A stretch of 64,000 bases of DNA from Alloascoidea hylecoeti. Taxonomy: Eukaryota. Every line of letters starts with the position of its first letter. Position 1 is the first letter of the stretch. Below, in pieces: positions 20,783 to 64,000 of this stretch. Location: contig BCKZ01000013.1 in assembly GCA_001600815.1 (NCBI GenBank), positions 397,621 through 461,620 of the forward strand, read 5' to 3'. A program made the translations under genes and the position numbers. The notes under the pieces are model-generated. The model was given only the letters and a program-made list of their open reading frames with translations, was not told the DNA's origin and made no database searches.

Positions 20783-20822
20783 NNNNNNNNNNNNNNNNNN
20801 AAAAAAAAAAAAAAAAAAAAAA
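20702..20822 (+). repeat. Long poly(A) tract containing an assembly gap
   Basis: Nearly pure A run on both sides of n bases at 20783-20800. Confidence 0.9.
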
Positions 20823-44902: not shown

Positions 44903-45191
44903 GTTTAGTGAGCTTCTATATTGTGAATCTTAAAGTTGTTAAGTCAAGTTTTTTTTATTAACACTAGAATAGTATAAGGCAAAGTTGTAAATATCCAAAT
45001 AAAACTCATCATCTCTAACATTATGACTAATCCCGGACATGATCACACATGATGCGATATCACGCTATTCATAAGTAGTGCATATAGCTATAGCTAGGAA
45101 TATATCAATCGTGAAACATATAGTGCTTGTATATGTAGTAAATATCAAACGAATAATCTTTTATAATTTTAAAGAATTTGAATCCATTATA

Positions 45192-45632
45192 CAGTAATTC
45201 CACTTAATTTAGGCCATTTGTTGTACTCATTTCGGCCATGCAGATTTGCCTCATTATTACCGATATGTGCTAAAATACTGTACTAAAGCATATTCATATT
45301 TCACGGATAATTGTTTATAAGGTTTATACTTTTATTATGTAGCTATATAGCGAATTTTAAATATAAAGAGAACGAAATTCCTTTAAGATTCAGTTCCCTA
45401 CCCTTCCTAAAAACTTTCTTTTACTTTTTACAATACCATCTAGAACTATTTATACTCTTTGCACGTAACTGGCTAACTTCACAACCAGATTTAAATAGTA
45501 TGACCTACTAATATAGAATAAAATCGGGTAAAAAAGGCCGCTGGGGAACTTAGTTGTAGGTGTGAGCCAAGAAATAATAAGTATGGCCGAATATTTAGTT
45601 CAAATAGTGGCCGAAAGTAAGTGGAATCACTG
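45192..45632. mobile_element. Non-autonomous Tc1/mariner-pogo-type MITE, 441 bp, TA target duplication
   Basis: TA|CAGTAATTCCACTTAATTTAGGCCA ... TGGCCGAAAGTAAGTGGAATCACTG|TA: imperfect TIRs with a second internal TTCGGCCAT inverted match. Confidence 0.8.
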
Positions 45633-45779
45633 TATCATCATATCATCAAATATTAGACTTTAAGTGTAAGACAGAAACAAAAACAGATCTATATATATAT
45701 ATATATATATAAAAGTAAACTAAAATTCTCCAGTAATATTATTATTCCAAATATTCTTAATTTTAAGCATTAATATTAA

Positions 45780-47704
45780 TTAATTTGCATTATAATTATC
45801 AGTTATAAGTCGAGTTAACTTATTCCAAACCGTTTCAATATTATACATGAAAGATCCCCTATTATCACCAATTAAAGTACTAGTGTTATTATCATTATGA
45901 TTATCATTTGAATTTTTCCAACCATCTCTAGATAGTGTACGTTTATATGCTTTTTTGGTAATTGCTCTTAATTTATTAGATGCAACTAAATGACCTATTT
46001 TATCCCCATTATTAATATTTATATCTTTTGATCTAATTATAATGTCTTTATTGTTACTCAAATCCGATGATGGAGGAGTATCGATATCATTATTTGAATT
46101 TGTATCAATATCATAATCATTTGGTAATGTTAATACTTCACCTTCATGAATAGATCTAGATAAGTTATCATCATAATGATTATCAAATTTTATGTTTTTA
46201 AGGTTATCTTTATAATTTATATTATAGTTGTAATGATGTGTAACGTACTTCATGCATGTGTTGTTATCTTTATCTTCCTTTTTATAGATATCTTTATCTT
46301 TGACTATATCTGTATACTTATCATCATTACACGTGGATATATTAGTTGAATATTTATTATTGTATTTTTGTTCTGCAGCTGTATTAAACAATATCTGAGA
46401 AGGATTTGTTATTATGGAAATATTTGTAACATTTGATTGAGCATTAGATTTTAAATCAATAGGCAATGGTAATGATTGTTTTGGTATTGATATTGAATGA
46501 GTTTGGGTTAAATTATTTATCGATGATGATGGGTTGTATGAATATAACGATTCTAATTGTTTTGTGATCAGTGATATTCCATTTTTAGAACTATTGGTAG
46601 AGTTGAAAATTTCACTATGGATATCAGGCAGGGGAGATTGAATTTGAGTTTGATTTTGAATTTGATTTTGATTTTGATGCTGATGCTGATGCTGATGCTG
46701 ATTATAATAATCCTTTGTGCTTACACTTAACGTATTAATATTGATATTTGATGTATTCGAATAATGTGGGATAGAAGGGTTGGATTGTATAGGATCTTGT
46801 GAAAGAGTTGAGAAATAATCAAAAATATTAATAGGTTGATTATTATTATAATTATTATTCGGATTTCTCAAAGAATTTTCGTATTCATTGATTGGTGTAA
46901 TACATAGAGGTTGAATGTTCATTGAAGTTGAAACTAATAAATTTTCATTCAAATCTAAATCCATACCAATAACTAGATCATAATTATCATGTTCCAATTG
47001 TTTATCATTCTCTGGGGTATCAGCTGCAGGTAGATGATCCCGGCCAAGTCTTGTAGGTGGGAATATATCAACAATTTCTAATTCTGTAGAAATGTTCCTA
47101 AAAAGAGTCTTCGATACAGATATTGGTCTTGAATATTTTATTGACCTCGATGCGGTTGAACTAGAGCTGGGTGGTGTGTTTGAAGATTGTTGTAAAGGAA
47201 TTCCTGGGGAAAATTTCTCCACAATCGTCGGTTGGATCGAATCACCTGTATCATAATCAAGCTCGTTATCATCGATCAGCAAAGAAGATAAAACGGGAGC
47301 AAACTGTGTTATTGTTGAATGTTTCATGGAGTGGGTTATTGAATGGGAATAAACAGCAATAGTATTAATATTGTCGAAAGGTTCGGATATGTTTGGAAGA
47401 TCATAACCTATATCATCTTCGAAAGTCGCATTATTCGTATTGATTGAACCCCGAGTAAGATTCAAAGAACCATAAGAACTGATTTGTCTATCTTCTATAG
47501 GAGATTTGATGTCCTTTCCACGACATACTATCGAACAGTATAAAGTGGGATCGTAGGTATGGAGGTGCTGTGATTCGTCATGTTTATTTAAAGATTTAGG
47601 TGGAGGGGTACTTTTTCGAGTAGTAGATTTGGTTACCAAAGAACGGCCACAAGCCAAACAATATGAATCGAACACAAACAGTTCGGGCATAACTCTCCCC
47701 TTAT
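45780..47704 (-). CDS. Protein with N-terminal Ecl1-like Cys motif and long low-complexity tail
   Basis: FDSYCLACGR...LYCSIVCRGKD matches the CxxC...LYCSxxC pattern of Ecl1 lifespan regulators. Start uncertain (47704 or 47690). Confidence 0.65.
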
Positions 47705-49749
47705 GCATCTCAGATCCCAAACAAAACAAAAAGACAAGAGGTCAAATTTTAGAAATCAAAAATCAGAAATTCAGTCGAACGTTACAGAAAAATTAAAGAA
47801 ATGAAAAATGAAAAATGAAAAATAATACAATTGGCTGATAAGAGTTTAGTCACAAATGGCAGGGTAACCGGCTTATCTGTTTTTGATAAGGTGGCATGCA
47901 TATATATGCAGGGTTGCTTTTATCTCTTTTATCAGTTGTGTGGAACAGTCATCTATGGTGAAATTTGTATTATGTGGAGTGTTTGTAGGTTTCTCGGACA
48001 TGTTTTCTTGAATAAGGGATAATCACAAATCAAAACATACTCTTCGAAAAGTTTCTAAAAATTCGAAGAACAAATAAAAAAAATATAAACAGATGTATTT
48101 TCACAGATCTTCAAGTGGAGAACCAGATCGGTTATATGCATAACGACTCTTTCGTAGCTAACTAGTGAGCTGTTTTGGCCTTAAAATTGTTTTATTTCTT
48201 CAATGCCAGGAGCGATTATATGATTTCTGCTACGCCAGATAAACTCCTTGTCGAAGGCTTTTTCATATTTACAGGTTCCGGTAAATGACTAATCAGGTTG
48301 TGATCTGATATAAGTGAGTAAAGTTCTTATGCTTGTTCACCTCCTCCATAGGTTGGGTCTTCTTTGTCTCATCTCTTTCCGCTGACATCGCACACATTTC
48401 TGATTAACAACAAGATTTTTTTCATAAGTGACTCTAATTCGCCATATGTGTCCCTTTTATTCTCATTCAGAATGTTTTCCTTATCCTGTAGCGTGTTAGG
48501 CAGAACCAACGGCTGTAGTTCAATATCTAAAATCAGTGTAGTTATTTTCACTTAGGCTGATTTCTTTCTCTTTTAGATCTACTTAATTCTCTATTCAAAA
48601 CGTCCTCTCCCCTAAAATCAACTTCTTGTAATTCAAACTATAGGTATATTGTCTGGAAGTTTTGATGTTTTCATATAGGTTTGAGTCACCAGGCCATTTG
48701 TTATGCATAAGCATTTCCTCTAGATCTTATCATCATGTCCCTGGCCCATCAACATCTCGACACTTAGATAGAAGTTACTAGTATCCCTACCTAATAACAA
48801 TTATACCTGTTTAGTTATTTAGGTTTAATGCATATAATTATCGCCCACCCCTTCATTAATTATTTTCTATACGTATACTATAATAACTATATTCTTTATG
48901 TATGTATATGGCTAGAGCGGATTAATTGATGTCGTTAACTATAAGGGTATCTGTATTGCTTTCTGATACCGAGCTTGTTTTCCCGACTAACCTTAAGATT
49001 TACTGGCTTCACTATTAACGTTTAATATATTTTCTTCTTTGTAAGCACTAGCTGTAAGCCTTATAATAATATACGAACAGCTGAAAATAAAATTAATCTC
49101 GGTTATCTATAGCCATATAGATTTACAGAAATATCTAGTGTATAATACTATATTGGTATTTAGTCTTTAGTTCTTTAACTGTATGTTAATTAACTAAAAT
49201 GTTCCAATATATATAATATGGACCTATTTGAAAACCTTAAATATGTGTCATTATATCTTGAGAATATTGAATTAGTACTATTAAATGTCTAGTAGTGAGT
49301 GTAATTGAATTTTAAGTAATTTACCTCTTTCAATTAATATTGTTCGAAACCTGGTATTGTACTTGTTCTGCTAGAATAAAATCATCAATTGAATTTACAT
49401 ATTGCACTTGGATTGAAAAAATTTCTGATGCCACAGTCTAATTCTCAATTGATTAAAATTTAGAAATGCTAATTATGAATATCTAAATCTTTAATAAACC
49501 TCGAATTCTTCACAGCCGCTATTATTATTCTCGAAGTTATCGAGGAATAGAATTACTAACTATATTTATAAATACAATAACTCAAATTTAATATAGTCTC
49601 ACGATAAAAAGAAATTTAAAGAAAGAAAAAATATTTATTGTAATCAAATATGGGCATATGAAATATAATATACATAAGTAACTATATACTATTTAGCTAA
49701 ATTAATTTATTATGGCAGCTTTAATATTTTTAGAATAATAAAAAAAGAA

Positions 49750-50545
49750 CTTGTAATTGAACTTCATACGCCAGTAGAAATAGATTCAACCTCACCAATT
49801 GTACTGTGAACAGGTAAATTATGCTTGTTTGAGTATAGGTTATATCCTCTGAAGCTATAGTTGTTGTTCTATCGCTATTACTCCTAGCAGAGCTCGAAAC
49901 TATTGGAGTATGTGATCCTGAACTGTAGGAATTTTGTAGTTATATTTGACACAGGAGTAAGGGATTTAACTGTTGAACTTGAACTGGCAGATGAACTCAA
50001 ACTTGCTGGTGACCTCATTACATGATGATGACCAGCAAACTTGGGTGATAAATGGATTAAAGTGTAAGTAGCCAAACAAAACCCAGTAATTTCACCTTTC
50101 TTAGTAGTACTATATTTGATCAACAGTAACAGATTCGGCGCAACCCATTACAGGTTCGCGCACTATATTCTTGACCTCAGACATGAAATTAAAATCATCA
50201 GCGTTGCCGTACCTTCAAACTCATTAATTTCATCTGATGGTATAAATTACTGTAGTTTTACCAGAATTTTCGGGTCTGATGGACATAATAACACACCATC
50301 TGTATCTGGAGTAAATGCAATATGATACTTTATATTCTTGTAGCTTAATATCAACACTTTATTCGATATCCAAGGACATGGTTTGCATTATATACCAGCT
50401 CAACTGAACCAGCCGTTACCTCGGTTGAACAAATTTCAATTGTAGGTGGGCAATATGACTTCATGATGGCACAAGACTCTGCATTAACATCTGCTACTTT
50501 CGCAAGTAATATGACCACTGCTATTACAGTATTTTTATAATTCAA
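49750..50545 (-). pseudogene. Pseudogene paralog of the GPI cell-wall gene at 60885-62810, in inverted orientation
   Basis: ATG replaced by TTG; same AVVILLAKVADVNAESC...HVLGY sequence; then a stop-containing insertion, frameshifts and loss of most of the Ser/Thr stalk. Upstream DNA (about 50550-50850) also resembles 60680-60884. Confidence 0.9.
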
Positions 50546-51104
50546 TTTGCATTATAATTAACTAGATTTTGAATCTCTTATTTGATGTTTTGAAAAAGAG
50601 AAGACGAGATGTTTCTAGTCTTTTATAATAAATTCTTTGTTATACCATCGTCATGATCATGATTTCAAAATATATTTATCTGATATATTTTAGCTAGACA
50701 CGTCTTAATTATAAGATATAAAACGCAATATCGATAACAAACGGTGTAGCTGCACACATGCATATGTCGAAATTTCAACTAAACGTTAATCATAATTTAT
50801 ATATTATTAATGGGATCACATTTGAATGAAATGCCACATTCTTATTAGAATGAAAAGAAACAAAAATAAGATACTAATCTTCACATAATAATAATCTTCA
50901 TTTGTTACTGTTATCTGCTTGAATCTGTGTAAAGTTGAAATAATCCGTGTTTGGACATATTTTTTACGATCAAACGTAGTTGTGATCTATCTACAGCGCC
51001 GCCTAGTTTGACGATTTCTGGAATATGCTCTACTATATTATCTTCCTGAGTAATTGAAAGTGTATATTTTATTTTATTAACACATCCATTTAATTATAAA
51101 GTTA

Positions 51105-51507
51105 GGGAAGTCATAGAAGCACCGAAGTTTTTTGGAAACTTGTTACCGGTTTTATTGTTCAGCTGCGCATAAACGACATTATGCCATCTCAAATGTCAAT
51201 CCTCCTTTTTCAATTTTATTTTTTGATGGGTTGACTGAAATTAAGTTTTACACGAAACCACATCTTTGGAGTTGTATCCCCCCTTTTTCTATTAAAGTAT
51301 TCACAGTGTGTGTGTTGTCACATCACCAAGGTAGAATACACCTCCAAGAAGTACGACGCGTAAAACTTATTTTCTTTTTAGTCAACTCCATGCTAAAAAA
51401 TTAAAACGGGAATTGACGTTTGAGATAGCATAGTGCCATCGTTTATGAGCAGCTGAACTCTAAAGGTAACAAGTTTGGAAAAGACTTCGGTGCTTCTTTT
51501 TCTTCCC
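51105..51507. mobile_element. MITE with long (about 100 bp) imperfect TIRs, Mutator-like, 403 bp
   Basis: GGGAAG..AGAAGCACCGAAGT..AAACTTGTTACC..GTTCAGCTGC.CATAAACGA..ATCTCAAA.GTCAAT is mirrored at about 51410-51507. Flanks TAAAGTTA and TAAAGTAC resemble a degenerate target duplication. Confidence 0.75.
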
Positions 51508-52695
51508 TAAAGTACGCTATGTAATGGACTAATGCCACGGCCTTTTTAGATAAACATGATAATTGTTTTCAAGCCACCTCAGGTTCTTAGTTTGTACTAA
51601 TTCTTTTTAAAGGACAAACACAATATACAGTTGTAGTTCAAAATTAAAATGTTTCATCAAAAACAAAATATCGAACTGCTATAAATAATGGCGAATCTGT
51701 ATTTATACATATGAAATACGGCAACGAAATGTTTTTCGAGCAAATGGCGAATACATGAAAGTACAACGAAATGGTGGCATCCCGAAAACCATTTATTAAA
51801 TTTAAAGTGCTGAAAATACGCATACGAAAATCTATTCCTCAGTTGACCTCCTACAATGCCACAGGTGATTATGTTTCCCCTTTTTAATCAAAAGATATAC
51901 AGAATTCATGGTCTAAAGATCTCAGAGGTGATAAAAGGAATAAATGATTCATAGCGTGTTCAAATAGTGGATATAATTTTTACTACGCGTATATATGTGT
52001 GTGTACATAAAAAAAGAGGTTCTCTCCTTTAAAAAAGAAAAAACACTTTGAACTCCACTCATGTTAGATATTAAATTCGTAGATAGTTTTAAGAAACTGA
52101 TGATAGGGTCTCTAATTCTCCCGACACATACGTTGGAGGATATCACAAGCTTTTGATGTTTCTTATTTCTCTCCTTTGAAAAGATATTTACACATTAGAG
52201 GGGTCTAAACTTTTACTTAACAAAGTATCCATCATAACGATTGATTTCTAGAAGACAAGTTTTTTTATATAATGAAATAACACTTGATATTGCCACACAT
52301 AAAAAATACTTGCAGTTAATGGTTAATCAGACAGTGTGTGATGTCAGCGGGAAAGAATGAGGTGACTAGGACTTATGTCATAGAACTAGTGGTCTGGTAT
52401 TGGAGGCACTTTACTCATGTATCAGATCACAACTTGAGCAGTGGTTTACCTACAAATATGAAAAAGACTTCGGCGTGGTAGTTAACCGGCGTAACAGAAA
52501 TCGTTTTAATTCATCCTCGTGATACCGTAGATCTAGTAAAAATATCAAGGGCCGTTTTTTTTAAAGCTTGCAAATTAATATAAACATTACTCTTTTAAAT
52601 ATTTAAATTTTAATAAAAAAAGGGGGTATAGGGGGTTTTGAAACTCAAATAAAGTTACCGTTATGAGGTATAGTACCTTTTTTCAAAATATTCTA

Positions 52696-52920
52696 GTCTT
52701 CTGTGGATTTTGACCTTTTTTAGGACGTAAACGAAAAACGTCCAACTGCTATTAGATATCGGGAATGGTTTTGATCATAGCCAAAAACGAAAATAAAAGA
52801 AATTATTAAATTATATACTAAAATTATGAGAAAAAATAACAATAAATGTTTTATTAATTATACTGGGAATCAATGGTGTTGTCTTTATACTCGGGATTTT
52901 GTGAAATGAGTTTATACGAG
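52696..52920 (+). repeat. Left terminal inverted repeat (paired part, about 225 bp)
   Basis: Reverse complement of 59615-59841. The inner about 150 bp are identical; the outer about 75 bp carry mismatches. Confidence 0.95.
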
Positions 52921-54364
52921 AGGGAGAGGGAAAATTTTCATGTTTAAATTTAATATCTATAATAAATATATGAAAATTTTATATTGAATTATACCAGATT
53001 TAAATATTAATAGAGATACTGTTGTCTTAGGGTTATATAAGAAGAATAGATTAGTAGATTATAGGGTTAAGTACTCGACATTATCTTATAATTATGGTGG
53101 TACTAGTATATACAATAAACGGTTTTATTCTACTTCAGGAGATATTATAAGACCTATAGAGTATAAAGAACCTTTAGGATTTATACCTAAAAATATAATA
53201 AATGTTTACTTCGATTTAGAAGGTAAAAACCTAGATAATTTATATGATAATATAGGAAAAGACTTAAAACCAGGAAATAAGTATGCATTTTTAATAAAGA
53301 TTAAAAGAGGTGAAGGAGGAATAGGAATAGCACATACACATACTACTTTTTCTTATAATAGCCATTTAGATTTTGAAGAAAAATTTAACACATTTTATTT
53401 AGAAGTTAAAGAAATAATAGAAGAATTTATTAAAGAATATAATGATTGTGAAGTATTGTATATACAATTTATGTATATAACGATTAGATCATTTCCTGAT
53501 CTAGAGCTAAAGAATATCAATAAATTAAAATTAAACAAGGGAATGTTAAATATAAGAGAAACTAAAAAAACATTTAATAATTTAACTCTACCGTTAACTA
53601 CAAACTTTTATTATTACGGTGAAAAATTATATAAAACTACAAATAAATTAGGTTATATAGAAACAGTAATGATATGAGGGTCTAACTTTATAGATTTGGT
53701 TAAAGATAAAAGTCATTTGATAAATAAAAAAGTAAATGGATCATATGATGTTGATTTTTATTTGTATAAGAATAAACAAGGTAATAATTATGTTATAGTT
53801 GTTAAAATCTTAGATGATAAAACACATATTAAAGAAGTAATATCTATGAACGGATTATCTCTAACTTTAGCTTATGATGATATAATAATCAAAGATATAG
53901 AATTTAAACGTAAAATAGGGAGTACTAGTTTATATATAAAAAATAATAAAGTGACCATGTATGATGTAGAAGAACATTTACCTATTATTAAACCTAGTAA
54001 AGTTCCATTTAAAACAGCTACTAATACCAATATAGGTACTTTAGATGTAGAATCATATTTTAACGAAGAAAACAATCAATCGTATGTTTACGCTTTAGGA
54101 TTTAAAGTATATAAACAAAACCCTGAGTTATTTTATATCAACGAAAATCAAACTAGTGAAAATTTAATTATAACGTGTATAAACGCTATGTTAAAAAATA
54201 GATATAACGGATTTATATTTTATGTTAGATTAACAATTAGTATAAAAACCAAATCAGGAACAATAAAAATAACACTAGTAGATTCTTATAATTTACTACA
54301 ACATAGTCTAGATTCTTTATGTAAAAACTTTGAAACAGAAGTAGTTAAAGGAATATTCCCATAT

Positions 54365-55112
54365 GATCTACATTATATAATGTTACTCGTTATTTATTAT
54401 CTACCAAGAAGGAAGGTATCGTATTATCTTATAATAAAGATAACATTGAAGATAAAGTAACAGTTTTTGTAGATTCGGACAAATCGGGAGATTCCAGTNG
54501 CAAAAGCACTTCTGGTGTTATTTTAATGGTTAATGGAAACATTATAGGATGGGCATCCCGCAGACAATCTGCTATCACAAAGTCTGCATCAGAATCAGAG
54601 TTACTAGCATTAGACTACGCTTGTGAAATGATTGATAAATTAATGAATTTATTGAAGTTTGTCTATGGTGAAGATATAAAAATTGATTATATGGAAGACA
54701 ATTCTACGGTAATTAAATGGGCAANTAATCCAGTATCTAAAGGAAGAAATTACCACATTGATACAAGAATAAAATATATTCGTAACAGGTTGTTTTTGAA
54801 TCAACACTTTGAATCTATCAAGAAAGTGCCAACTGAAGACAATTATTCAGATATTCTTACGAAACCAGTAAGTGGAAACACATTTAATAAACTGAAAAGT
54901 TACCTTATAAAATAGATATGAATAAGGTAAAGAAGGAGTGTTGGGTATTGAGCTTTGTGGGGTATTAAGCTTTGTTGAATTCTATATTATGCAGATCAAT
55001 ATGCAGTATTTACTATATAGTTAGCCATTTCCACTTGTTTTGACAAGAGAGATATATATACAATAATAAAAACAGATAATAACCAAGTTCCAAAGATGTC
55101 AGATATCAAACA
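54365..55112 (+). mobile_element. 5'-truncated Ty1/copia retrotransposon fragment (RNase H, PPT, 3' LTR) nested in the plasmid DNA polymerase
   Basis: Frame from 54367: TRYLLSTKKEGI...FVDSDKSGD...KSTSG...GWASRRQ...SASESELLA...EDNS...HIDTRIKYIR...VPTEDNYSDILTKP, stop at 54915. Purine tract AAAGAAGGAG 54929-54938. Confidence 0.92.
54939..55112 (+). repeat. Putative 3' LTR (174 bp)
   Basis: Starts TGTTG directly after the polypurine tract and ends ...TCAAACA, a few bases before the polymerase frame resumes (IGDTPS at 55119). Confidence 0.7.
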
Positions 55113-56688
55113 TATAATATAGGAGATACCCCATCTAAACATTATTTTAAAAACATAACCGATAAAGAGTATGAATTAATAAATAAATCAGATTGAGATA
55201 TAAAAAAAGAAACACTATACTATCTAAGTAATGGAGGTTATGGATAAATTTAATAAATATATATTTAAAACGTATGATATACAAATAACAGATTCTTTAA
55301 CAATATCTAGATTATCTTTAAACATTTATTTATCTCATTATTTAGGAGAAAGTAAAATACCTTTAATAAACAAACCTGATATATATAATTTTGTTAAACT
55401 AGGATATTATGGAGGTATTACAGAGGTGTATAAACCTTTCTGTGAAAAAGGAAATTATTATGATGTTAATTCAGAATATCCTTACGTATCTAAAGGAACA
55501 TTACCTGGAAACGAGTGTAAATATATAGAAGATTTTACAGGTTTAGGACTGGATTTAGATAAATTGTTTGGGTTTTTTTACTGTAAAATAAAAACTAACA
55601 ATGGGTATTTAGGTTTATTACCTTTGCATATAAATGGAAGTTTAATACTACCTAATGGTGAATTTTATGGTGTTTGATTTAGTGAAGAACTAAAATTTGC
55701 TAAAGAAAATGGGTACGATATTACGGTTTTAAAAGGATATAACTTCAATAGAATAGATAACGTATTTAACAAATATGTAGATGAGTTATATGAAATACGT
55801 TCTAAGAGTTTTGGAGTTCAAAAAGCTGTGACAAAAATGCTTTTAAATGCTCCTTTCGGTAGATTTGGTATGTCTATCTTTAAACCTATAACAGAATTTG
55901 TTAATAGAGAAAAATTAGATTTTATATTATCTACACATGAAGTAAAATCTTTAGTAGAGATAAATCAAGATAATTTTTTATTAACATATAATCCTGAAAT
56001 ATCCAAAACAGTTTGTGTGAAATCCGGATTGAATTACATTAAAGTTTTGAATATTAATAAAAAAGATATAGAAAATAATAGTAAATTTAAAGATGTATCT
56101 ATCACTACATCCGCAGCTATAACTTCTTATGCTCGTATTTATATGAATAAAGTTAAAGTATGAATACTATCAAATAAAGGATTAATATTTTATATGGACA
56201 CTGACAGTATTGTCACTAATTTAACGTTACCTAATGAATTATTAGGTGATCTAATAGGTCTATTCAAACTTGAATACAAAATAGAAAAAGGTTACTTTAT
56301 ATCTGCTAAAACCTATTGTATTAAAACTGTAGAAGGTGTTGTTATTAAAAAAGCTAAAGGTGTATACAGTAGTAGTCTGAATTTAAAAGACTATGTTGAT
56401 ATGTATTTAAATAAACAAGATGTCTTAGCTGAAAAAAATTATAGTATTATTAATTATAATAAAGGTTCAGTTAATATTGATACTAAAGAAACTATATTAC
56501 ATCATGATGCTTACACTAAAAGAGAAAAAGTATATAATTCTAATGGTAAGTGGATAGATACTAAACCCTTAGTATATAAAGTAGATAGTAATAATAATTT
56601 GTATAAAGTATAAAGGTTTTTTTTTCATGTAAAATGAGATATAAACAAAAAATAAAAAGAAAACAAAACAAACAATCTTTTTTTTTTA

Positions 56689-56734
56689 CACAAATATAAT
56701 ACCCCCAAATATTATGTTTGTGGTTTTTTTTTTT
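56689..56734 (+). terminator. Hairpin plus T-run between the convergent plasmid genes
   Basis: CACAAATATAATA / TATTATGTTTGTG stem (12 of 13 Watson-Crick, one G-U) followed by a run of about 11 T. Confidence 0.4.
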
Positions 56735-56926
56735 AACAGCGTTAAGCTATGGAGGTGGGAAAAAAGGTTTAAGATTTATCCTTTTTTATCTTAAAGAACA
56801 GTAAACTAAAAAGATATGTAGTATTAAATTATATCGTACATAAATCAAGATTTTAGTTACATGCTTTATATATGTTATATACTGTGTGTTTTACAATTCA
56901 CTTATTATTTAAACATATTTAACGAG

Positions 56927-59709
56927 TTAATTAATAATATAAGCACTTTTTTTGACTAAAGAAATATCATAACCTTCAGATAATACTTTAGATATATCAG
57001 GATATCTAATAACTTTACGGTCTGATAGATAAATTTCTAGTTTATCTACATCGAAATCATCACCTATATGATTTTTTATATGATTAATAATATCTTCATT
57101 TAGTTTATGTAAATATCCTTTATCTGTATATAAAGATGTATATGTGATCTTTAAATTATTAATAATAAAAGACATATTATTAGCTGTAACAGCAAAAAAA
57201 TCATGGATAGCATAAATGTTTTTAGAGTCAGATCTATTTTTAAAATAATTATTTATTAACATAAACAATGAAGCAGCATCTAGAGAATGAATCAAATTAG
57301 GCATAAAAGCCCTTTTTTGTTTAGGACCGTCAAATTTATTTTTATTAGGTACTTTAATCCTGAAAGTATTATGACTATAGTTAAGAGGTTTTAATCTAGT
57401 ATCCTTTAATTCCATATAACTTTGTTTAGCTACCAGTCCTGTTGGTAAAGTTCATGGTATGGATATTCCTAATTTAGTACAAATATTTGCAACCTCTTTT
57501 AAGTAGTTAGTTAAATGCTCTAAAGAAGGGAATACACTATATATTATATACATAAGAGCTTTATATAAATGTATAAAATCACGAGATTCTAGTTTAATAT
57601 TATGATCATTTTTATATCTATATCAAATCATATTAACCTTATATTTTTTTAAATTCTCTTCACGCTCTACATATTCTTGAGAGTTCATTAATTCATTAAC
57701 TTCATTTAAAGAAGTGGTTAATTCTAAATCAAATTCAAAAGAATCTTTTAAATACTTAATCCCTTGAATAGAAGATACATTATAAGGTATAGTCATTATA
57801 GCTTGTTTTAAAACACTTCTATGTATACATAAATCTTTAAGTCTAATATAACTTTCTCTATCTTTATTTTTTATATTTTTTTTTTTCAATTGTGTTTCGA
57901 AATAATTACTAATAAACCCTAATACATATGTATAAAAATCGTCTGGAACATCTTTTCATGTTGATTCTTTTAAATTTAATTGTTTGGCTAAAGAAGAGTT
58001 AAGCCCTAACATTGCTAGATGTTGATATCCGTTACATGTAGCATCTAGCTGTATAGGTAAATAAGTTACAAAATAAGTAGAATTACTATTATCTAAACAA
58101 TCTAATCATCTATTATATTCAAAACAAAATGCAATGAATAATAATTTATTTTCAGCTTGGTGTAATAGCACACCATTTTTAAAATTACGTATGTTATCTA
58201 TATTATCATTAACTCAACTCAATCTATCTATAGCTGATTTTTTATCTAATTTATTACCGAAACAATTAGCTCCAAACAATTTTAAGTAATCTATAGAGCT
58301 AGTATCTGTTTTCAATATTTTCTCACCATTACTAAACAATAACAACGCTTTAGCTAGTTCGGATCCTTGATAATTTAAGTAATCTGTAGTACAGTACATT
58401 CTACCTCTATAGTCTAATCTAACCGGTATATAAAATTCAAGTACATTTTCATATACATCTACTATAGCTAAAATGTTTTCTTGTACATGTTTTTTACTTA
58501 AAAAACTCTCTAACTCTAATTTTTGTCTATTGTTATATTTTCATGTTCATGTGTTGTATTTATCATTGTAAGACCATACTCATAATCATATAACCTAATA
58601 AAATCTAATACATCTTTATTTATTTTATATTTTACTGAGGCTATGTTATTAGCTCCATCATATATTACATTCATATTTTTAATTTCAGAGTGGGTTTTCA
58701 ATCTTCAGTTTTGTATAATTAATTCATCACACGTCAATTCATCATTTAACAAATACCCTCCTAATCGTTCTATAATTTTACCATCTTTACTAATCTCTCT
58801 AACATATGGTTTAGGTTTTACCAACATATAGGTAATTTTTTAGGTAAATTTAAGGGTTTTAATTTATAAATTAAAGGGACTATTCTTTTAGTTACTTTAA
58901 TCACATTTAGATTTTGTTTTGAGTATTCTAATGATCTAATTAAATCTATTTCTAATATATCTATTTCTCGCATTCAATCTATTAATAATAAATCCAAATC
59001 ATTAGTATACATTTCTACAATACCTTTATTTTCTTTCCTTCAATCACTCATAGAGTACTTAGAAGAGTACAACTTTTTACTTTTTTCTTTTAAATATAAA
59101 ACATAAAAATAATTTTGTACTGTTTGTTTCCCTAGATCTCCAAAAATATTTATACAATTATTATCTTCTTGTTTAGGATTATTAATTAAAACTAAAAACT
59201 TTCCTAATAAAATGCTAACTATAAAGTCTGTTGATACTTCATTTAATATTATACTCATATAATAATGAGCTTTGTACAGTTTCTTTTATATTTTCTACGT
59301 TGTATATATTATCTATTTTTCTTCTTTTAAAATTATTTATTAAAATAAATAAATCTTCACTGCTTTTTATTAACATTTCTTTTAATTGTTTGTTTAAACT
59401 TGATATAATTTCATATGTTTTTAAACCCTTATCTTCGTCATATTTAGATAAATTAAACAATAACTTCTCTATTTTAATTTGAGTTTCCTTATTAATAGGA
59501 TTGTTATCTATTATGTTTTTAACTTCTATGAACAATATATTTTTATTTAAATCTTTTCTTTTATATGATTGATTATAGAATTCTCGTATACTGTAGTGGT
59601 ATAAAGGAGAAAAGCTCGTATAAACTCATTTCACAAAATCCCGAGTATAAAGACAACACCATTGATTCCCAGTATAATTAATAAAACATTTATTGTTATT
59701 TTTTCTCAT
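56927..59709 (-). pseudogene. rpo: Single-subunit T3/T7-like RNA polymerase of the linear plasmid (TGA=Trp), frameshifted
   Basis: LP/MLVKPKPY, GGYLLN, LDYRGRMY, YQGSELAKALL, motif A QLDATCNGYQH, motif B RSVLKQAIMTIPYN, W(TGA)TLPTGL, PNLIHSLDA, motif C AIHDFF. Frameshifts near 59270, 58828 and 58520; continuous from about 58520 to 56927. Confidence 0.95.
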
Positions 59710-59841
59710 AATTTTAGTATATAATTTAATAATTTCTTTTATTTTCGTTTTTGGCTATGATCAAAAACATTCACGATATCTAATAGCTGGGGGACGTTTT
59801 TCGTTAAGGTCCTAAAAAACGGTCAAAATCCGAAAGAAGAC
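59615..59841 (-). repeat. Right terminal inverted repeat
   Basis: Reverse complement of 52696-52920. Confidence 0.95.
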
Positions 59842-60884
59842 ATATATATTATGTTACTGTTTCCTTTACCACGTTACTGCTACTTCTGTATTTCAGTATT
59901 ATTATAGTGTATTACTATATTTATGTATACTATCAATATATATTCAATGATTTAAGAATCCCTATGCATATACACATGTTTTTAACCTTCCTTAATTGAC
60001 CATTTATCCTATAGTTCAAGTTTAACTATATAATATTTAAGACAAAACGTATATACTACTTTAGTTCAGGATGTATTATAATTTCATATGTCATAGGCAT
60101 TTTCTTGTTAGCTTCTGTCATTCAAGGTAATTATGACCGTGCAACTGATTACTTTTTTCATTTCATTATATTATTGTATATGCATATGTTGGTATAAAAA
60201 TTTCATATGTTAGAATAAGAGATGCTAGTGTTAGTTTCTACGTTTGCTCTTAGTTTTACTGCTCCTATTTAGTTTAAGTTAGTTCATGGTTTCTTTTCTC
60301 GCTATTTCTCTTGCGTGTTCACAGTCTGATAACTTTTCCCAAGATCTCCACGTGATACTTTCCATATCTGTGCATATGCGCGCATTATCAAAGATTACTC
60401 TACTGATCCGAGAACTGTTCAAATATAATTAAATCATTATATATAACAATTATATATAAAATTATATAAAACTATATAAAATTACACAAACGCCCAACAA
60501 CCAAGAAAAACTTAAAAATTTCTACAGACAATAATATTATGGATCACCATCTTCGGATGAGCAAAGATATAAGTTATAGTGAGTAAGCACTGAGCAGATG
60601 GAATAAAAAAAATTATATATTATATGGTATTACATATAGTTATAAATTTAAACTTTGCATTTGTATTTTTCGGCGCTAATTATAGTGTGGCATTTCCATT
60701 AAATGTGATGCCACTAATAATAAATATAATTAACATTTAGCTACACATGTGCACGCTGCAGCTACACCGTTATAATAGAATTTTAAATGATGATATAACA
60801 AAATATTTATAAAAGACTAGAAACCCTCCGTCTTTTATTTTTCAAGCCATCAAATAAGAAAAGCAATATCTAATTAGAATACAT

Positions 60885-62810
60885 ATGAATTTTATTAATA
60901 CTTTAACAGCGGTGGTCATATTACTTGCGAAAGTAGCAGATGTTAATGCAGAGTCTTGTGCCATCATGAAGTCATATTGCCCACCTACAATTGAAATTTG
61001 TTCAACCGAGGTAACGGCTGGTTCAGTTGAGCTGGTATATAATGCAAACCATGTCCTTGGATATCAAATAAAGTATCATGTTGCATTTACTCCAGACTTG
61101 TTTGGTGTGGATGAGGTTCAATCCATCACAACCGAAAATGCTGGTGAAACTACAATAATTTATAGCCTGTCTCTGGGAATTAATGAGTTTGAAGGTACGG
61201 ACAACGCTGATGATTTTAGTTTTGTATCTGAGGTCAAGAATATAGTGCCAGGTCCCGAGCCTGGAATGGTTTGTGCCGAATCTGTTACTGTTAATCAAAT
61301 ATACTGTTATAAGAAAGGTGAAATTACTGGTATTTGTTTGGCTACTTACACTGTAATCCATATATCACCACAAATTTGCTGGTCATCATCATGTAATGCG
61401 ATTACCAGCAGTTCAAGTTTGAGTTCATCTGCTAGTTTAAGTTCCAAAGTCACAGACTCAAGTTCAACCACGCCAATTTCAAGCTCAACAGTTAAATCCT
61501 CTAATTTTGTGTCAAGTTCAACTAAAATTTCCTATAGGTCAGAATCATATGCCACATCAGTTTTAAGCACTAATAGTAGCATCACACCTAATAGATCATC
61601 CAGTACAGCTATAAGCAGTTCAATTTTAACCACACCTTCAGAAAGTAACAGTTATTATCAATCAAGTGGTCTCAGTTCAACAATAGTTTCAAGTAAAGCT
61701 AGCAAGGCTAGTTCTACTGGTATAACAAGTTCAATTACAGGTTCCTATAGTTCATCATATGGTCTGACAGTTTCAAGTTCTGNNNNNNNNNNNNNNNNNN
61801 NNNNNNNNNNNNNNNNNNNNNNNNNNNNNNNNNNNNNNNNNNNNNNNNNNNNNNNNNNNNNNNNNNNNNNNNNNNNNNNNNNTTCAAGTAAAGCTAGCAA
61901 GGCTAGTTCTACTGGTATAACAAGTTCAATTACAGGTTCCTATAGTTCATCATATGGTCTGACAGTTTCAAGTTCTGTTAGTAATATCAGATCCAATAGC
62001 ATTAGATCATCAAATTCTGTATTAAGTGCTACTAGTATAAGTATGAGCAGTTCACTTGCAGCCTCAACTTCGGGAAGTAAAAGCTACGGACAATCAAGTA
62101 CCATCAGTTTGACAGCAGTTCCAAGTACAATTACGAGTTCCTATAGCTCAGGATCATATGTCACAACAGTCTCAAGCCTTGATAGTAGTTTCACATCCAA
62201 TAGCGATATAACAACAATTCCTGTATCAACCATAACTGTTATAAGAAAAATCACCTCATTTATAACTATTACTTCGGAGGGTAGAACCTATATTAAAACA
62301 GGCATAATGTCAATACCTGTTCCAAGTACAATTGGTGAGGTTGAATCTACTTCTACTGGTGTAGGAAGTTCGATTACAACTTATAGTTCAAAATCAGATG
62401 GACCAAGAGTTGCAATCCCTGATAGCAGTATCACATCCGATGGTGATAAATCATCAGATTATGCGACAACCATAACAACTGTTATGTCCATACATAATGC
62501 ACCTTCAGGATCAAGTTTGAGTAATCCAGCTAATGTCGGGCCAATGACAGGTCCAAATGGTGAATCTCCAAGAGGTGGCAGCTACAGTCCAATTGAGTCT
62601 CTTTCAAATCCATCTCCGGATAACCCAAGTATTAATACTGATTCAGCTTCAAATTCTAATGAACCAAGTTCAAGTACCAGTGGATCAAACGGTTTTGGAT
62701 TTCCTCCTAGAATAGTTCCAGTTACATTCGATTCCTCTTCCAGTGGGATTACAGTATCTTTACTTCTGACTATTGGTATTCTTATTTCTCAATACATTAT
62801 TTTTTATTAA
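60885..62810 (+). CDS. GPI-anchored Ser/Thr-rich cell-wall protein / adhesin, with a possibly Flo11-like N-terminal domain
   Basis: Signal peptide, Cys-containing globular N-terminal domain, Ser/Thr stalk spanning a 100-n gap, and a hydrophobic C-terminal GPI-type signal. Confidence 0.8.
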   Translation: MNFINTLTAVVILLAKVADVNAESCAIMKSYCPPTIEICSTEVTAGSVELVYNANHVLGYQIKYHVAFTPDLFGVDEVQSITTENAGETTIIYSLSLGINEFEGTDNADDFSFVSEVKNIVPGPEPGMVCAESVTVNQIYCYKKGEITGICLATYTVIHISPQICWSSSCNAITSSSSLSSSASLSSKVTDSSSTTPISSSTVKSSNFVSSSTKISYRSESYATSVLSTNSSITPNRSSSTAISSSILTTPSESNSYYQSSGLSSTIVSSKASKASSTGITSSITGSYSSSYGLTVSSSXXXXXXXXXXXXXXXXXXXXXXXXXXXXXXXXXXSSKASKASSTGITSSITGSYSSSYGLTVSSSVSNIRSNSIRSSNSVLSATSISMSSSLAASTSGSKSYGQSSTISLTAVPSTITSSYSSGSYVTTVSSLDSSFTSNSDITTIPVSTITVIRKITSFITITSEGRTYIKTGIMSIPVPSTIGEVESTSTGVGSSITTYSSKSDGPRVAIPDSSITSDGDKSSDYATTITTVMSIHNAPSGSSLSNPANVGPMTGPNGESPRGGSYSPIESLSNPSPDNPSINTDSASNSNEPSSSTSGSNGFGFPPRIVPVTFDSSSSGITVSLLLTIGILISQYIIFY

Positions 62811-64000
62811 AACCTAAAACTACTTGGAATTCTGATCATAAAATAATTTAAATTAATTTATTTATTAATCTTTCAATCATTTAAAGATTCTCCTTATATT
62901 ATTATATTACTATTACATTCTAAGTTCTAACTCAAAGAATATTAAAGTTGTTTTAATGATGTATATATTTCATAGGTGAATATTATAAAAAAAATTCCTT
63001 CTTTAAATTTATTTTCATCTTAAGAATACAATAAATTTAAATTATAAATATAGTAATTCTATCCCATATACTTTAAGTGATCATGTGTTGTCCCTTGGGA
63101 ATATGAATGTGTAGAAATTTTGTATGTGTTGTATGTATAAATATCATAGTTTTCCGTATATATACGTATATAAGCTTAAGAAAATACAATGTTCATCTGT
63201 TTTGAATTTGGCACCATGTTGATGATTTAGACTTTAGCAATGCGCTTGACATTAATTAATTATAGTGATCCAAGTGCAATATGTAATTACACTCACCACG
63301 AAACCTTTAATATAATTAATTCAATATTCTCAAGATATAATGATACACTTAAAGATCTGAACGATGTTAAAGTGTTTCAAATTGATCAGTTGGTGTGTCT
63401 TGTCCTGGAATATTACGTTTAGGCCTATATTTAAAGTTGTCAAATGGCTCCATATTTTATTGGAACATTACAGTTGATTAATTTTAAACATAGAGTTAAA
63501 GAACTAAAGACTAAATACTAATACAAGACTATTACAAGTATTACCAAATGGTCGGAATTTTAGAGTTACAATTAGAAAACGTCAGAATTTTAGAGTTACA
63601 ATTAGAAAATGGCTTTGAAGGTTAATTTGAAAAACTTGGTATACCCACTACATACTTTATATGTGTTATAAATTTGTTTTACTATGGTTATCTTTACCAG
63701 ATGTGTCTTTCAATAAATTTCAAGAACAGTACTAAAATAGTAAATATTAGACTTTATAAAGACTAGGTAATTTATAATATTTCCTAACCTTATTTATTGG
63801 ATATATAGTTATATAATTAAATTAGAATAGTTTTTGTTATTACATAGTTTCATATATATGGGGTGATATTTATGAAGATCTTCATTTCCCTTATATATTA
63901 GCGAGTTGCCACATTATTTAGTTTTAGAAAAACACACGTTCTTTATAATATAAACTTATTACCAACTATGCCTCCGAAGCAATTCAAGGACATCGCCACT

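What the first reader, a model, noticed from the sequence alone, without database searches (positions are those of the whole stretch)
52696..59841. Whole linear mitochondrial plasmid (invertron) fossilised in a yeast nuclear chromosome
Seen: about 225-bp TIRs bracket convergent pPolB and T7-like RNAP genes whose fragmented ORFs join when TGA is read as Trp; flanks are nuclear genes. Known: this is the layout of fungal mitochondrial linear plasmids (kalilo, maranhar, pClK1, pAL2-1, Pichia pPK2). It differs from cytoplasmic pGKL killer plasmids, which use the standard code and a non-T7-type RNAP. Inference: a near full-length plasmid (about 6.4 kb after removing the copia insert) moved from mitochondrion to nucleus. 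It records a possibly undescribed plasmid in a yeast lineage, where few such plasmids are described.
Basis: partly seen in the sequence, partly recalled or inferred. Interest (0 to 1): 0.92.

Follow-up and report, generated by a model that had tools for sequence, protein, structure and literature searches.

The report
Mitochondrial linear plasmid fossil in yeast chromosome
A nearly complete mitochondrial-type linear plasmid, with both end repeats and its DNA and RNA polymerase genes, sits broken and inactive between ordinary nuclear genes of a budding yeast, preserving a plasmid lineage that has no named relative closer than about 50%.

Summary
Window 52696-59841 (7146 bp, GC about 0.22-0.26) is bounded by 225-227-bp terminal inverted repeats. 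They enclose a protein-primed family-B DNA polymerase gene (PF03175, + strand) and a T7-like RNA polymerase gene (PF00940, - strand) that converge on each other. Both genes start inside the repeats and share their first 31 codons, as in pPK2 and pAL2-1. Fifteen in-frame TGA codons occur, and 10 lie where most homologues have Trp. CTN aligns with Leu and ATA with Ile, so the code is table 4. Reading TGA as Trp does not make the genes whole. The DNA polymerase has a 38-codon in-frame deletion (Exo II region), a 727-742-bp standard-code insert (probably the 3' end of a copia-type retroelement) and a roughly 14-nt deletion. The RNA polymerase has three frameshifts. Flanks are standard-code nuclear sequence (ACH1-, ATF- and LAS17-like genes on the left, a Ser/Thr-rich wall-protein-like gene on the right). 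The closest polymerase is an unnamed 1078-aa protein at 73%; the closest named one is Podospora pAL2-1 at 52%. The best reading is a fairly recent nuclear capture of a mitochondrial invertron, a plasmid counterpart of a NUMT or NUPAV. Read-level checks of junctions and depth could not be run. It is a new member of a known kind, of moderate interest.

The parts
52696..52920 (+). Left terminal inverted repeat (TIR-L). It holds the ATG (52826) and the first 31 codons of the DNA polymerase gene.
   Evidence: 227 aligned columns at 95.6% to 59841-59615. All 10 differences lie in the outer 71 nt or so (52697-52767); the inner 153 nt or so are identical.
52826..54370 (+). DNA polymerase gene, 5' part (frame +1): N-terminal, presumed terminal-protein region plus the exonuclease domain. 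Open with TGA=Trp. It lacks 38 codons around the Exo II region at about 54226.
   Evidence: aligns to residues 88-567 of P0411 at 55%, with a 38-residue gap opposite P0411 490-527.
54371..55112 (+). Foreign insert. An open standard-code frame (54370-54915, 181 codons) is followed by a purine-rich tract (54926-54938) and a putative LTR that starts TGTTGG at 54939. The right edge is ambiguous: 55097 if polymerase homology VRYQT is real, or 55112 if the LTR ends in CA. It is probably the 5'-truncated 3' end of a Ty1/copia-type retroelement.
   Evidence: polymerase homology stops at 54370 and resumes at 55098 or 55113. GC is 0.314 at 54500-54999 against 0.22-0.26 around it. Searches found no family. 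One search gave weak Atlas leads only (0.75-0.85). The motifs are recalled, not tested.
55098..55226 (+). DNA polymerase gene, short middle piece in frame +2. It ends at a deletion of about 14 nt that removes the Exo III region (homologues have ..KKDLISLL.. there).
55228..56613 (+). DNA polymerase gene, polymerase domain (frame +3). It is open to its stop, and motifs such as YYDVNSEYP, KMLLNAPFGRFG and YMDTDS are present.
   Evidence: PF03175, E 1.1e-60; 73% to P0411 over 460 residues, no gaps
56927..58537 (-). RNA polymerase gene, C-terminal catalytic part (frame -2), open with TGA=Trp.
   Evidence: PF00940, E 2.6e-60; 55-56% to P0002-P0004, 47% to pAL2-1
58540..58827 (-). RNA polymerase gene, third piece (frame -3), bounded by frame changes near 58540 (short deletion) and near 58828 (a 1-nt change in CCTATATGTTGG).
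58828..59267 (-). RNA polymerase gene, second piece (frame -1).
59300..59709 (-). RNA polymerase gene, first piece (frame -3). The ATG at 59709 lies inside TIR-R and there is a frame change near 59270-59300.
59615..59841 (-). Right terminal inverted repeat (TIR-R).
49151..50848 (-). Context, left flank: a decayed, inverted paralogue of the right-flank gene.
   Evidence: 49969-50649 versus 61450-60789, 81.4% over 700 columns, plus further pieces
60885..62810 (+). Context, right flank: a standard-code gene for a protein with a signal-peptide-like start, a Ser/Thr-rich body and a hydrophobic tail. A 100-N scaffold gap (61783-61882) lies inside its repeats.
   Evidence: no Pfam family

Best explanation
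The region is a dead nuclear copy of a mitochondrial linear plasmid (invertron) of the kalilo / pAL2-1 / pPK2 kind.

In its free form the plasmid would have been about 6.5-6.7 kb. It would have carried a terminal protein on its 5' ends, replicated by its own protein-primed family-B DNA polymerase, and been transcribed by its own T7-like RNA polymerase. Both genes read inward from starts inside the terminal repeats and were translated with the mitochondrial code (TGA = Trp).

A whole or nearly whole molecule escaped the mitochondrion. It was then joined into a nuclear chromosome break in the spacer between two divergent paralogues of a wall-protein-like gene, by the end-joining route known for NUMTs and for cytoplasmic-plasmid NUPAVs.

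In the nucleus it cannot be expressed as protein, because TGA stops cytosolic translation. It has since picked up a retroelement fragment, three deletions and two further frame changes. Few substitutions are visible, so the capture looks fairly recent.

Shown: the anatomy, the code, the homology, the lesions and the standard-code flanks. Inferred: the mitochondrial residence of the free form, the end-joining route and the timing.
For: - TIRs of 225-227 bp at 95.6%, far longer than any other inverted pair in the region.
- PF03175 and PF00940 at E about 1e-60 each.
- Of 15 in-frame TGA among 1902 homologue-aligned codons, 10 lie where most aligned homologues have W (for example 55194 6/6, 57454 8/8, 58216 8/8, 59042 7/7). 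TGG occurs only twice. No TAA or TAG occurs in the aligned frames.
- CTN aligns mostly with L (208 of the listed residues) and ATA with I (441). Third codon positions are A or T in 1631 of 1902 codons.
- Both genes begin with the same 31 residues inside the TIRs. The same feature is reported for pPK2, pAL2-1 and the Brassica plasmid (PMC3673629, passages), and it is visible in the pAL2-1 proteins returned here (P0021, P0424).
- Named relatives are mitochondrial plasmid or mitochondrial-genome enzymes: pAL2-1, Arthrobotrys, Moniliophthora, Calocybe, Trametes, Pisolithus.
- A quick ML tree of 30 DNA polymerases puts the window with P0411 (SH-aLRT 100). The pair sits inside a 12-row clade of unnamed sequences (100), next to the Pezizomycotina and Basidiomycota plasmid clades.
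- A free relative is a complete 11.2-kb metagenome contig, L001, with 40-nt perfect TIRs and both genes intact under table 4.
- Nuclear setting: 23 ORFs of at least 150 aa are open in the standard code across the window. These include ACH1-, ATF-, LAS17- and ABC-type genes. The ACH1 product is 63-72% identical to budding-yeast Ach1 proteins.
- No N run lies between 20801 and 61782, so both junctions sit inside one contig.
- Decay: the lesions listed under parts. A replicating plasmid could not carry them.
- The insert is open for 181 codons in the standard code, and its GC (0.31) is closer to the flanks (0.26-0.39) than to the plasmid.
Against: - No read-level proof exists.
- No whole genome is held. 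A free or mtDNA copy, other nuclear copies and the empty site could therefore not be sought.
- The right flank is only 1.9 kb long before a 100-N scaffold gap, and its gene has no Pfam family.
- The 10 TIR differences all lie in the outer 71 nt or so, with none in the inner 153 nt or so. Uniform neutral decay does not predict this (about 1e-5 by my arithmetic), so either the ends were altered at capture or the free plasmid's ends were imperfect.
- The window's polymerases deviate from columns invariant in the other seven homologues no more than the presumably functional homologues do: 6 of 134 and 2 of 84 columns. Decay is thus seen only as indels. This fits a young copy, but it would also fit indel-type assembly errors for the two 1-nt frame changes.
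- The copia identity of the insert, used as a sign of nuclear residence, is not confirmed by any library.
Confidence: 0.85

Rival explanations
1. Assembly chimera: a free mitochondrial plasmid contig was wrongly joined between two nuclear contigs.
For: The assembly is a draft with N runs and single Ns. The right flank runs only 1.9 kb before a scaffold gap. Junction reads and depth could not be checked.
Against: Both junctions lie inside one gap-free stretch, 20801-61782. A chimera would need two independent wrong joins at the two plasmid ends. The copy carries lesions that a replicating plasmid could not tolerate and a standard-code insert with a GC (0.31) closer to the flanks. Its TIRs differ at 10 positions. 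The two flanks hold inverted paralogues of one gene, which ties them to one locus.
Confidence: 0.03
2. Secondary transfer: the plasmid first integrated into mitochondrial DNA, as kalilo and pAL2-1 do, and reached the nucleus as part of a larger NUMT.
For: Integration of such plasmids into mtDNA is the commonly reported fate (PMC11277600, passages; PMC9046093, passages).
Against: Both TIRs are present to the same outer point. No tRNA lies near the element. No Rfam family was found in 44000-64000. No Pfam hit of note came from 14 frames of at least 53 aa (standard code) in 47819-52481. Polymerase homologues hit nothing outside 52600-59900. The adjacent sequence includes a paralogue of a nuclear-type gene.
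Confidence: 0.04
3. Cross-species capture: the DNA came from a plasmid of another fungus and never lived in this yeast's own mitochondria.
For: The closest relatives are unnamed, so their hosts are unknown. The nearest named relatives are filamentous fungi, at 47-56%. The one named yeast enzyme seen, Candida oxycetoniae mitochondrial dpo, is only 35% identical. The stretch also occurs in a wood-decay metagenome where many fungi live together.
Against: Transfer from the cell's own organelle is the simpler route. The AT-rich table-4 usage is compatible with a non-Saccharomycetaceae budding-yeast mitochondrion (the compatibility is recalled knowledge). The window clusters in a clade of its own, not inside the Pezizomycotina or Basidiomycota plasmid clades.
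Confidence: 0.07
4. A nuclear self-synthesising transposon (Polinton/Maverick-like) or a cytoplasmic killer-plasmid (pGKL-type) insertion, rather than a mitochondrial plasmid.
For: All of these carry a protein-primed family-B polymerase and TIRs.
Against: The element holds only the two polymerase genes. It has a T7-like single-subunit RNAP (PF00940) and uses TGA at conserved Trp columns. No further frame of at least 90 aa has a family. That pGKL-type plasmids use the standard code and a different RNAP is recalled knowledge, not tested here.
Confidence: 0.01

Closest known systems
Podospora anserina mitochondrial linear plasmid pAL2-1 (proteins P0021 and P0424 returned here)
   Same: TIRs. Convergent protein-primed PolB and T7-like RNAP genes that start inside the TIRs and share their N-termini, both beginning M-(K/R)-K-N-N. 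It is the best named match for both enzymes (RNAP 47%, 449 bits; DNA polymerase 52%, 497 bits).
   Different: pAL2-1 is an 8.4-kb free plasmid with 1-kb TIRs (table in PMC3673629). The window copy is about 6.4-6.7 kb with 0.23-kb TIRs, is chromosomal and broken, and falls in a different clade.
Pichia kluyveri mitochondrial linear plasmid pPK2 (Blaisonneau et al. 1999; known here only through citing papers)
   Same: A yeast host, about 7 kb, two genes, and homogenised N-termini of the DNA polymerase and RNA polymerase inside the TIRs (PMC3673629, passages).
   Different: No pPK2 sequence was identified by name among the hits, so identity to it is unknown. pPK2 is a free plasmid with 0.5-kb TIRs (same table).
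NUPAVs: nuclear sequences of plasmid and viral origin in budding yeasts (Frank and Wolfe 2009; seen only as cited in PMC5499181)
   Same: Capture of extrachromosomal linear-plasmid DNA by a yeast chromosome, followed by decay.
   Different: As I recall, the plasmid NUPAVs described derive from cytoplasmic pGKL-type elements. The primary paper is not held, so I could not check whether mitochondrial-type plasmids were also reported. This element is of the mitochondrial type and is nearly complete with both TIRs.
NUMTs in yeast chromosomes (Ricchetti et al. 1999; Sacerdot et al. 2008, as cited in PMC5499181)
   Same: DNA of mitochondrial compartment origin inserted at chromosome breaks, unreadable in the nucleus because of the code difference.
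   Different: NUMTs are pieces of the mitochondrial chromosome, in yeasts mostly short (recalled). This is an entire autonomous replicon of 6.4 kb.
Candida oxycetoniae linear mtDNA with plasmid-derived dpo and rpo at its ends (PMC9046093; P0188)
   Same: A budding yeast in which a pPK2-like invertron left a genomic trace.
   Different: There the plasmid fused with the mitochondrial chromosome and supplies its telomeres. Its DNA polymerase is only 35% identical to the window's and lies outside the window's clade.

Membership tests
Fungal mitochondrial linear plasmid (invertron; kalilo / maranhar / pAL2-1 / pPK2 type) | Terminal inverted repeats at both ends | tested here: met
   52696-52920 versus 59841-59615, 227 columns at 95.6%
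Fungal mitochondrial linear plasmid (invertron; kalilo / maranhar / pAL2-1 / pPK2 type) | Protein-primed family-B DNA polymerase (PF03175) with a long N-terminal extension | tested here: met
   PF03175, E 1.1e-60. The N-terminal 515 codons align to P0411 residues 88-567. That the extension is a terminal protein is inferred.
Fungal mitochondrial linear plasmid (invertron; kalilo / maranhar / pAL2-1 / pPK2 type) | Single-subunit T7-like RNA polymerase (PF00940) | tested here: met
   PF00940, E 2.6e-60. PDB matches to mitochondrial and T7 RNAPs.
Fungal mitochondrial linear plasmid (invertron; kalilo / maranhar / pAL2-1 / pPK2 type) | Genes read inward from the TIRs, with homogenised N-termini | tested here: met
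   Both frames start MRKNNNKCFINYTGNQWCCLYTRDFVKWVYT; feature described in PMC3673629
Fungal mitochondrial linear plasmid (invertron; kalilo / maranhar / pAL2-1 / pPK2 type) | Mitochondrial genetic code (TGA = Trp) | tested here: met
   10 of 15 in-frame TGA lie at columns where most homologues have W; CTN = L and ATA = I
Fungal mitochondrial linear plasmid (invertron; kalilo / maranhar / pAL2-1 / pPK2 type) | Free linear molecule in mitochondria with protein-capped 5' ends | not testable with these tools
   Needs cell fractionation and gel or exonuclease assays. No genome or reads were available.
Fungal mitochondrial linear plasmid (invertron; kalilo / maranhar / pAL2-1 / pPK2 type) | Intact polymerase genes (autonomy) | tested here: not met
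   One insert, three deletions and two further frame changes. This copy is a fossil of such a plasmid, not a working one.
Nuclear capture of organellar or plasmid DNA (NUMT / NUPAV type) | Foreign segment contiguous with nuclear genes on both sides | tested here: met
   Gap-free from 20801 to 61782. Standard-code genes lie on the left and a standard-code ORF on the right.
Nuclear capture of organellar or plasmid DNA (NUMT / NUPAV type) | Junctions and single-copy depth confirmed in reads; empty site in relatives | not tested
Cytoplasmic killer plasmids / virus-like elements (pGKL type) | Standard genetic code and no T7-like RNAP (recalled definition) | tested here: not met
   TGA at Trp columns and PF00940 present
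Polinton / Maverick self-synthesising transposons | Integrase and capsid or packaging genes beside the PolB; target-site duplication | tested here: not met
   Only the two polymerase genes lie inside the TIRs. No duplication is visible at the junctions.
Ty1/copia LTR retrotransposon (for the 54371-55112 insert only) | Recognisable Pol (RT/RNase H) homology and an LTR bounded by TG..CA | tested here: inconclusive
   No Pfam hit and no PDB hit. Atlas leads reach only 0.75-0.85, including a Ty1/copia RT cluster at rank 20. The AlphaFold2 model has pLDDT 35. There is no second LTR copy in the window. The DSD..GD..KSTSG and SDILTKP motifs are recalled as copia-like.

The most novel reading that the evidence does not exclude
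This may be the first near-complete mitochondrial invertron, with both TIRs and both genes, recorded in a budding-yeast nuclear chromosome. The cluster of 10 changes confined to the outermost 71 nt or so of the TIRs may be a scar of how protein-capped ends are processed when such a molecule is joined into a chromosome break. The site lies in the spacer of an inverted paralogue pair and may have been break-prone. No description of such an insertion turned up in the held library. The key 2009 NUPAV paper could not be read.
Probability: 0.35. Interest if true: 0.6.

Novelty: new member of a known kind. Interest (0 to 1): 0.45.

Why it matters
Few mitochondrial linear plasmids are known from budding yeasts; pPK2 and the Candida oxycetoniae mtDNA ends were the only ones met in the papers read here. 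This fossil gives an almost full sequence of another lineage and shows that whole plasmids, not only mtDNA fragments or cytoplasmic killer plasmids, can be fixed in a yeast chromosome. It offers a dated natural example of end-joining of a protein-capped linear replicon. It is also a practical warning: PolB and RNAP hits in yeast nuclear assemblies need a code check before they are annotated as genes or as contamination. It does not open a new kind of biology.

Tried and rejected
There is no junction or depth evidence either way.
- The look-up of sequencing runs listed no RNA holder, which says nothing about expression. X1 and X2 (shares 0.95 and 0.94) may be the source sample. X3 (0.87, another study, same organism label) and X4 (0.87, wood-decay metagenome) hold most words of 52000-60500. 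The element is 84% of that stretch, so these shares do not prove the junctions.
- No whole genome is held.
- The search of earlier findings returned nothing.
- Copia insert: Pfam gave none. The PDB gave only a chance-level hit, E 0.065. The Atlas gave weak leads on one piece and nothing on the other. The single-sequence AlphaFold2 model had pLDDT 35 and was not used for a fold search.
- Viral contigs: no relative of the DNA polymerase and no exact match to a 53-nt TIR/ORF-start pattern.
- Rfam: nothing in 44000-64000. tRNA: only tRNA-Val at 41225.
- The yeast mitochondrial code (table 3) was considered and rejected, because CTN aligns with Leu and ATA with Ile.
- A 5-bp TATAA target duplication around the insert was considered and dropped. 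Copia-frame homology (..VTRYL..) runs to the left edge, so the left edge is a truncation, not an LTR end (my reading).
- 'Both TIRs end at the same nucleotide, so the ends are complete' was considered and rejected. Homology must stop where the shorter end stops, so completeness of the ends is unknown.
- Frank and Wolfe 2009 could not be read.
- The listing of cluster members gave no names for the closest relatives.
- The careful tree did not finish, so the tree cited is the quick one.

Full report
**Observation**

The repeat finder reports one outstanding inverted pair, 52716-52920 against 59615-59819 (205 nt, 97%). The next longest pair in 51000-61500 is 46 nt at 87%. blastn of the region against the window extends the pair to 52696-52920 and 59841-59615, 227 columns at 95.6%.

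Between the repeats GC is 0.20-0.27. The exception is 0.314 at 54500-54999. The flanks are 0.26-0.39.

With the standard code the interior has no frame longer than 254 aa. With table 4 it has frames of 544, 460 and 490 aa plus three shorter ones.

Pfam places 55231-56613 (+) in DNA_pol_B_2 (PF03175, E 1.1e-60) and 56927-58399 (-) in RNA_pol (PF00940, E 2.6e-60). The two genes converge, with stops at 56613 and 56927. Each starts at an ATG inside a repeat (52826 and 59709). Their first 31 residues are therefore identical.

**Genetic code**

I aligned 16 homologues to the region by tblastn under table 4 and examined every aligned codon (1902 codons).

- Fifteen in-frame TGA codons were found.
- At 10 of them most aligned homologues have Trp (for example 55194 6/6, 55675 8/9, 57454 8/8, 58216 8/8, 59042 7/7).
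- At five they do not (53675 0/8, 56161 4/9, 57958 2/8, 58543 0/1, 59628 0/1).
- TGG occurs twice.
- No TAA or TAG lies in any aligned frame.
- CTN codons align mainly with Leu and ATA with Ile, so the code is of the table-4 type, not the Saccharomyces mitochondrial table 3.
- 1631 of 1902 third positions are A or T.

The element was therefore shaped by translation in a TGA=Trp compartment.

**Relatives**

RNA polymerase. The best hits for the RNAP piece are an Arthrobotrys musiformis protein (56%) and unnamed proteins on 6-10-kb contigs (55-56%). Podospora pAL2-1 RNAP is 47% (449 bits). Solved structures reach only 82 bits (yeast mitochondrial RNAP) and 52 bits (T7).

DNA polymerase. The best hit for the polymerase domain is P0411, an unnamed 1078-aa protein on a 6701-bp NCBI contig, at 73% over 460 residues without gaps. 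Unnamed proteins at 59-64% come next. The best named hit is pAL2-1 at 52% (497 bits). phi29 polymerase gives 30 bits. A 160-aa fragment (P0185) is 81% identical over the last 139 residues. The Candida oxycetoniae mitochondrial dpo is 35%.

Tree. A quick ML tree of 30 polymerases was used because the careful search did not finish. Support is SH-aLRT only, and several outgroup branches are long.

- The window joins P0411 (support 100).
- That pair sits inside a clade of 12 rows, none of them named (100).
- The clade stands beside a Pezizomycotina group (pAL2-1, Golovinomyces, Dactylella) and a Basidiomycota group (Moniliophthora, Calocybe, Trametes, Pisolithus).
- C. oxycetoniae falls outside all three.

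Free relative. One member of the clade is available as DNA. L001 is an 11,222-bp metagenome contig with 40-nt perfect terminal inverted repeats. Both polymerase genes are intact under table 4 (3 and 8 TGA), here on the same strand.

**Damage**

Reading TGA as Trp does not restore the genes. Against P0411 and other homologues the lesions are as follows.

DNA polymerase:

- It runs in frame +1 from 52826 to 54370, with a 38-residue gap opposite P0411 490-527. This is the stretch ..HYLGGYDAVFLL.., which I take to be Exo II.
- Homology then stops. It resumes in frame +2 at 55098 (P0411) or 55113 (other homologues).
- It changes to frame +3 at about 55228, where roughly five residues, including the Exo III aspartate region, are missing (a deletion of about 14 nt).
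- It is then open to its stop.

RNA polymerase:

- It is covered from about residue 30-40 to the end of its homologues, in four frames: -3, -1, -3, -2.
- The changes lie near 59270-59300, at about 58828 (a 1-nt change within CCTATATGTTGG) and at about 58540 (a short deletion).

Catalytic motifs that I recognise survive: YMDTDS and KMLLNAPFGRFG in the DNA polymerase, and LPIQLDATCNGYQH and IHDFFAV in the RNAP.

**The insert**

The 727-742-bp insert has a frame open for 181 codons in the standard code (54370-54915). A purine-rich tract follows (54926-54938), then a sequence starting TGTTGG (54939).

Its motifs are ..VTRYL.., ..DSD..GD..KSTSG.. and ..SDILTKP... I recall these as the RNase H/C-terminal end of Ty1/copia Pol, and the layout is that of a polypurine tract plus 3' LTR. 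I could not confirm this:

- Pfam and the PDB gave nothing.
- The Atlas gave only sub-threshold leads, one of them a Ty1/copia RT cluster.
- The other piece gave none.
- The structure model was unusable.
- No second LTR copy lies in the window.

The insert is truncated at its 5' side. Whether five polymerase codons were lost with it depends on where the LTR ends (55097 or 55112). Whatever its family, it is standard-code DNA with a GC (0.31) closer to the flanks (0.26-0.39) than to the plasmid, inside a TGA=Trp gene.

**Setting**

The window has 23 standard-code ORFs of at least 150 aa. To the left lie WH1/WH2 (LAS17-like), alcohol acetyltransferase, acetyl-CoA hydrolase and ABC ATPase genes. 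The acetyl-CoA hydrolase is 63-72% identical to budding-yeast Ach1 proteins. Sugiyamaella lignohabitans and Geotrichum reessii are the best named ones at 68%. The host is therefore a budding yeast, and I do not place it more finely.

The only N runs near the element are 20783-20800 and 61783-61882, so both junctions lie in one contig.

The right flank carries a gene for a protein with a signal-peptide-like start, a long Ser/Thr-rich body and a hydrophobic tail. A decayed inverted copy of that gene lies in the left flank (49151-50848 against 60676-63523, with a core of 700 columns at 81%). The plasmid thus sits in the roughly 2.7 kb of unique spacer between two divergent paralogues. This also accounts for part of the ORF-poor 5 kb to its left.

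**Age**

All 10 TIR differences (8 mismatches, 2 single-base indels) lie in the outer 71 nt or so. The inner 153 nt or so are identical. No nonsense substitution lies in 1902 aligned codons.

At columns invariant in the other seven homologues, the window differs at 6 of 134 (RNAP) and 2 of 84 (DNA polymerase). This is within the range of the presumably working homologues, 0-23%. Substitutional decay is therefore slight and the capture is probably recent.

The clustering of changes at the extreme ends is not what uniform decay predicts (about 1e-5 by my arithmetic). It remains unexplained. Alteration during end processing at capture, or imperfect ends in the free plasmid, are the two ideas I have.

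**Mechanism and rivals**

The best explanation (0.85) is capture of a whole or nearly whole mitochondrial invertron at a chromosome break, followed by silent decay. The route is inferred by analogy with NUMTs and NUPAVs (PMC5499181, passages).

- An assembly chimera (0.03) would need two wrong joins and does not explain the lesions or the insert.
- Transfer by way of an mtDNA-integrated copy (0.04) lacks any flanking mitochondrial sequence.
- A donor plasmid from another fungus (0.07) cannot be excluded, because the closest relatives are unnamed.
- Polinton-like or pGKL-like origins (0.01) fail on gene content and code.

**What was not possible**

- No genome is held.
- The look-up of sequencing runs shows that two further studies hold 87% of the sampled words of 52000-60500. 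The element alone is 84% of that stretch, so this does not prove shared junctions.

**Literature**

Six full-text searches found no report of a mitochondrial-type linear plasmid in a yeast nuclear chromosome. From the papers I read passages only:

- PMC3673629 (plasmid table and N-terminal homogenisation);
- PMC9046093 (C. oxycetoniae);
- PMC5499181 (NUMT and NUPAV);
- PMC11277600 (integration into mtDNA);
- PMC4866847 (not relevant);
- PMC11848437 (reference list).

Frank and Wolfe 2009 and Blaisonneau et al. 1999 were not available. What I say of them is recalled or second-hand.

**Verdict**

This is a new member of a known kind: a plasmid-derived counterpart of a NUMT, and a new lineage of a known plasmid family. 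Interest is 0.45.

Noticed in passing
window 49151-50848 (-) and 60676-63523 (+): The element lies between two inverted, divergent paralogues of a Ser/Thr-rich, signal-peptide-bearing wall-protein-like gene. The right copy is open and the left copy is broken into short frames. The core is 700 columns at 81.4% identity.
   Followed up: partly
window 61688-61977: The 100-N scaffold gap (61783-61882) sits inside the Ser/Thr repeats. The 95 nt before it are identical to the 95 nt after it, so the gap may hide or duplicate a repeat unit. The '641-aa ORF' at 60885-62810 is read through the gap.
   Followed up: partly
window 52697-52767 and 59770-59841: All 10 differences between the two TIRs are confined to the outermost 71 nt or so, and the inner 153 nt or so are identical. 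Uniform decay does not explain this.
   Followed up: partly
window 51102-51176 and 51439-51510: An imperfect inverted repeat of about 75 nt (two adjoining pairs, 46 nt at 87% and 26 nt at 88%) with a spacer of about 262 nt, in the unique spacer left of the plasmid. Its nature is unknown.
   Followed up: no
L001 1-11222: A complete-looking 11.2-kb metagenome linear plasmid. It has 40-nt perfect TIRs, a PolB (1165 aa) and an RNAP with a very long N-terminal extension (1472 aa) on the same strand, both using TGA=Trp, and about 2.7 kb beyond the RNAP with only short ORFs.
   Followed up: partly
P0001 (Arthrobotrys musiformis, 1623 aa): This named RNAP aligns to the window's catalytic part twice (residues 436-928 at 57% and 1146-1622 at 31%). 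It therefore seems to hold two RNAP modules in one predicted protein.
   Followed up: no
window 54499 and 54725: The only two single-base Ns in the region both fall inside the insert. This may reflect read heterogeneity from other copies of the same repeat in the genome.
   Followed up: no
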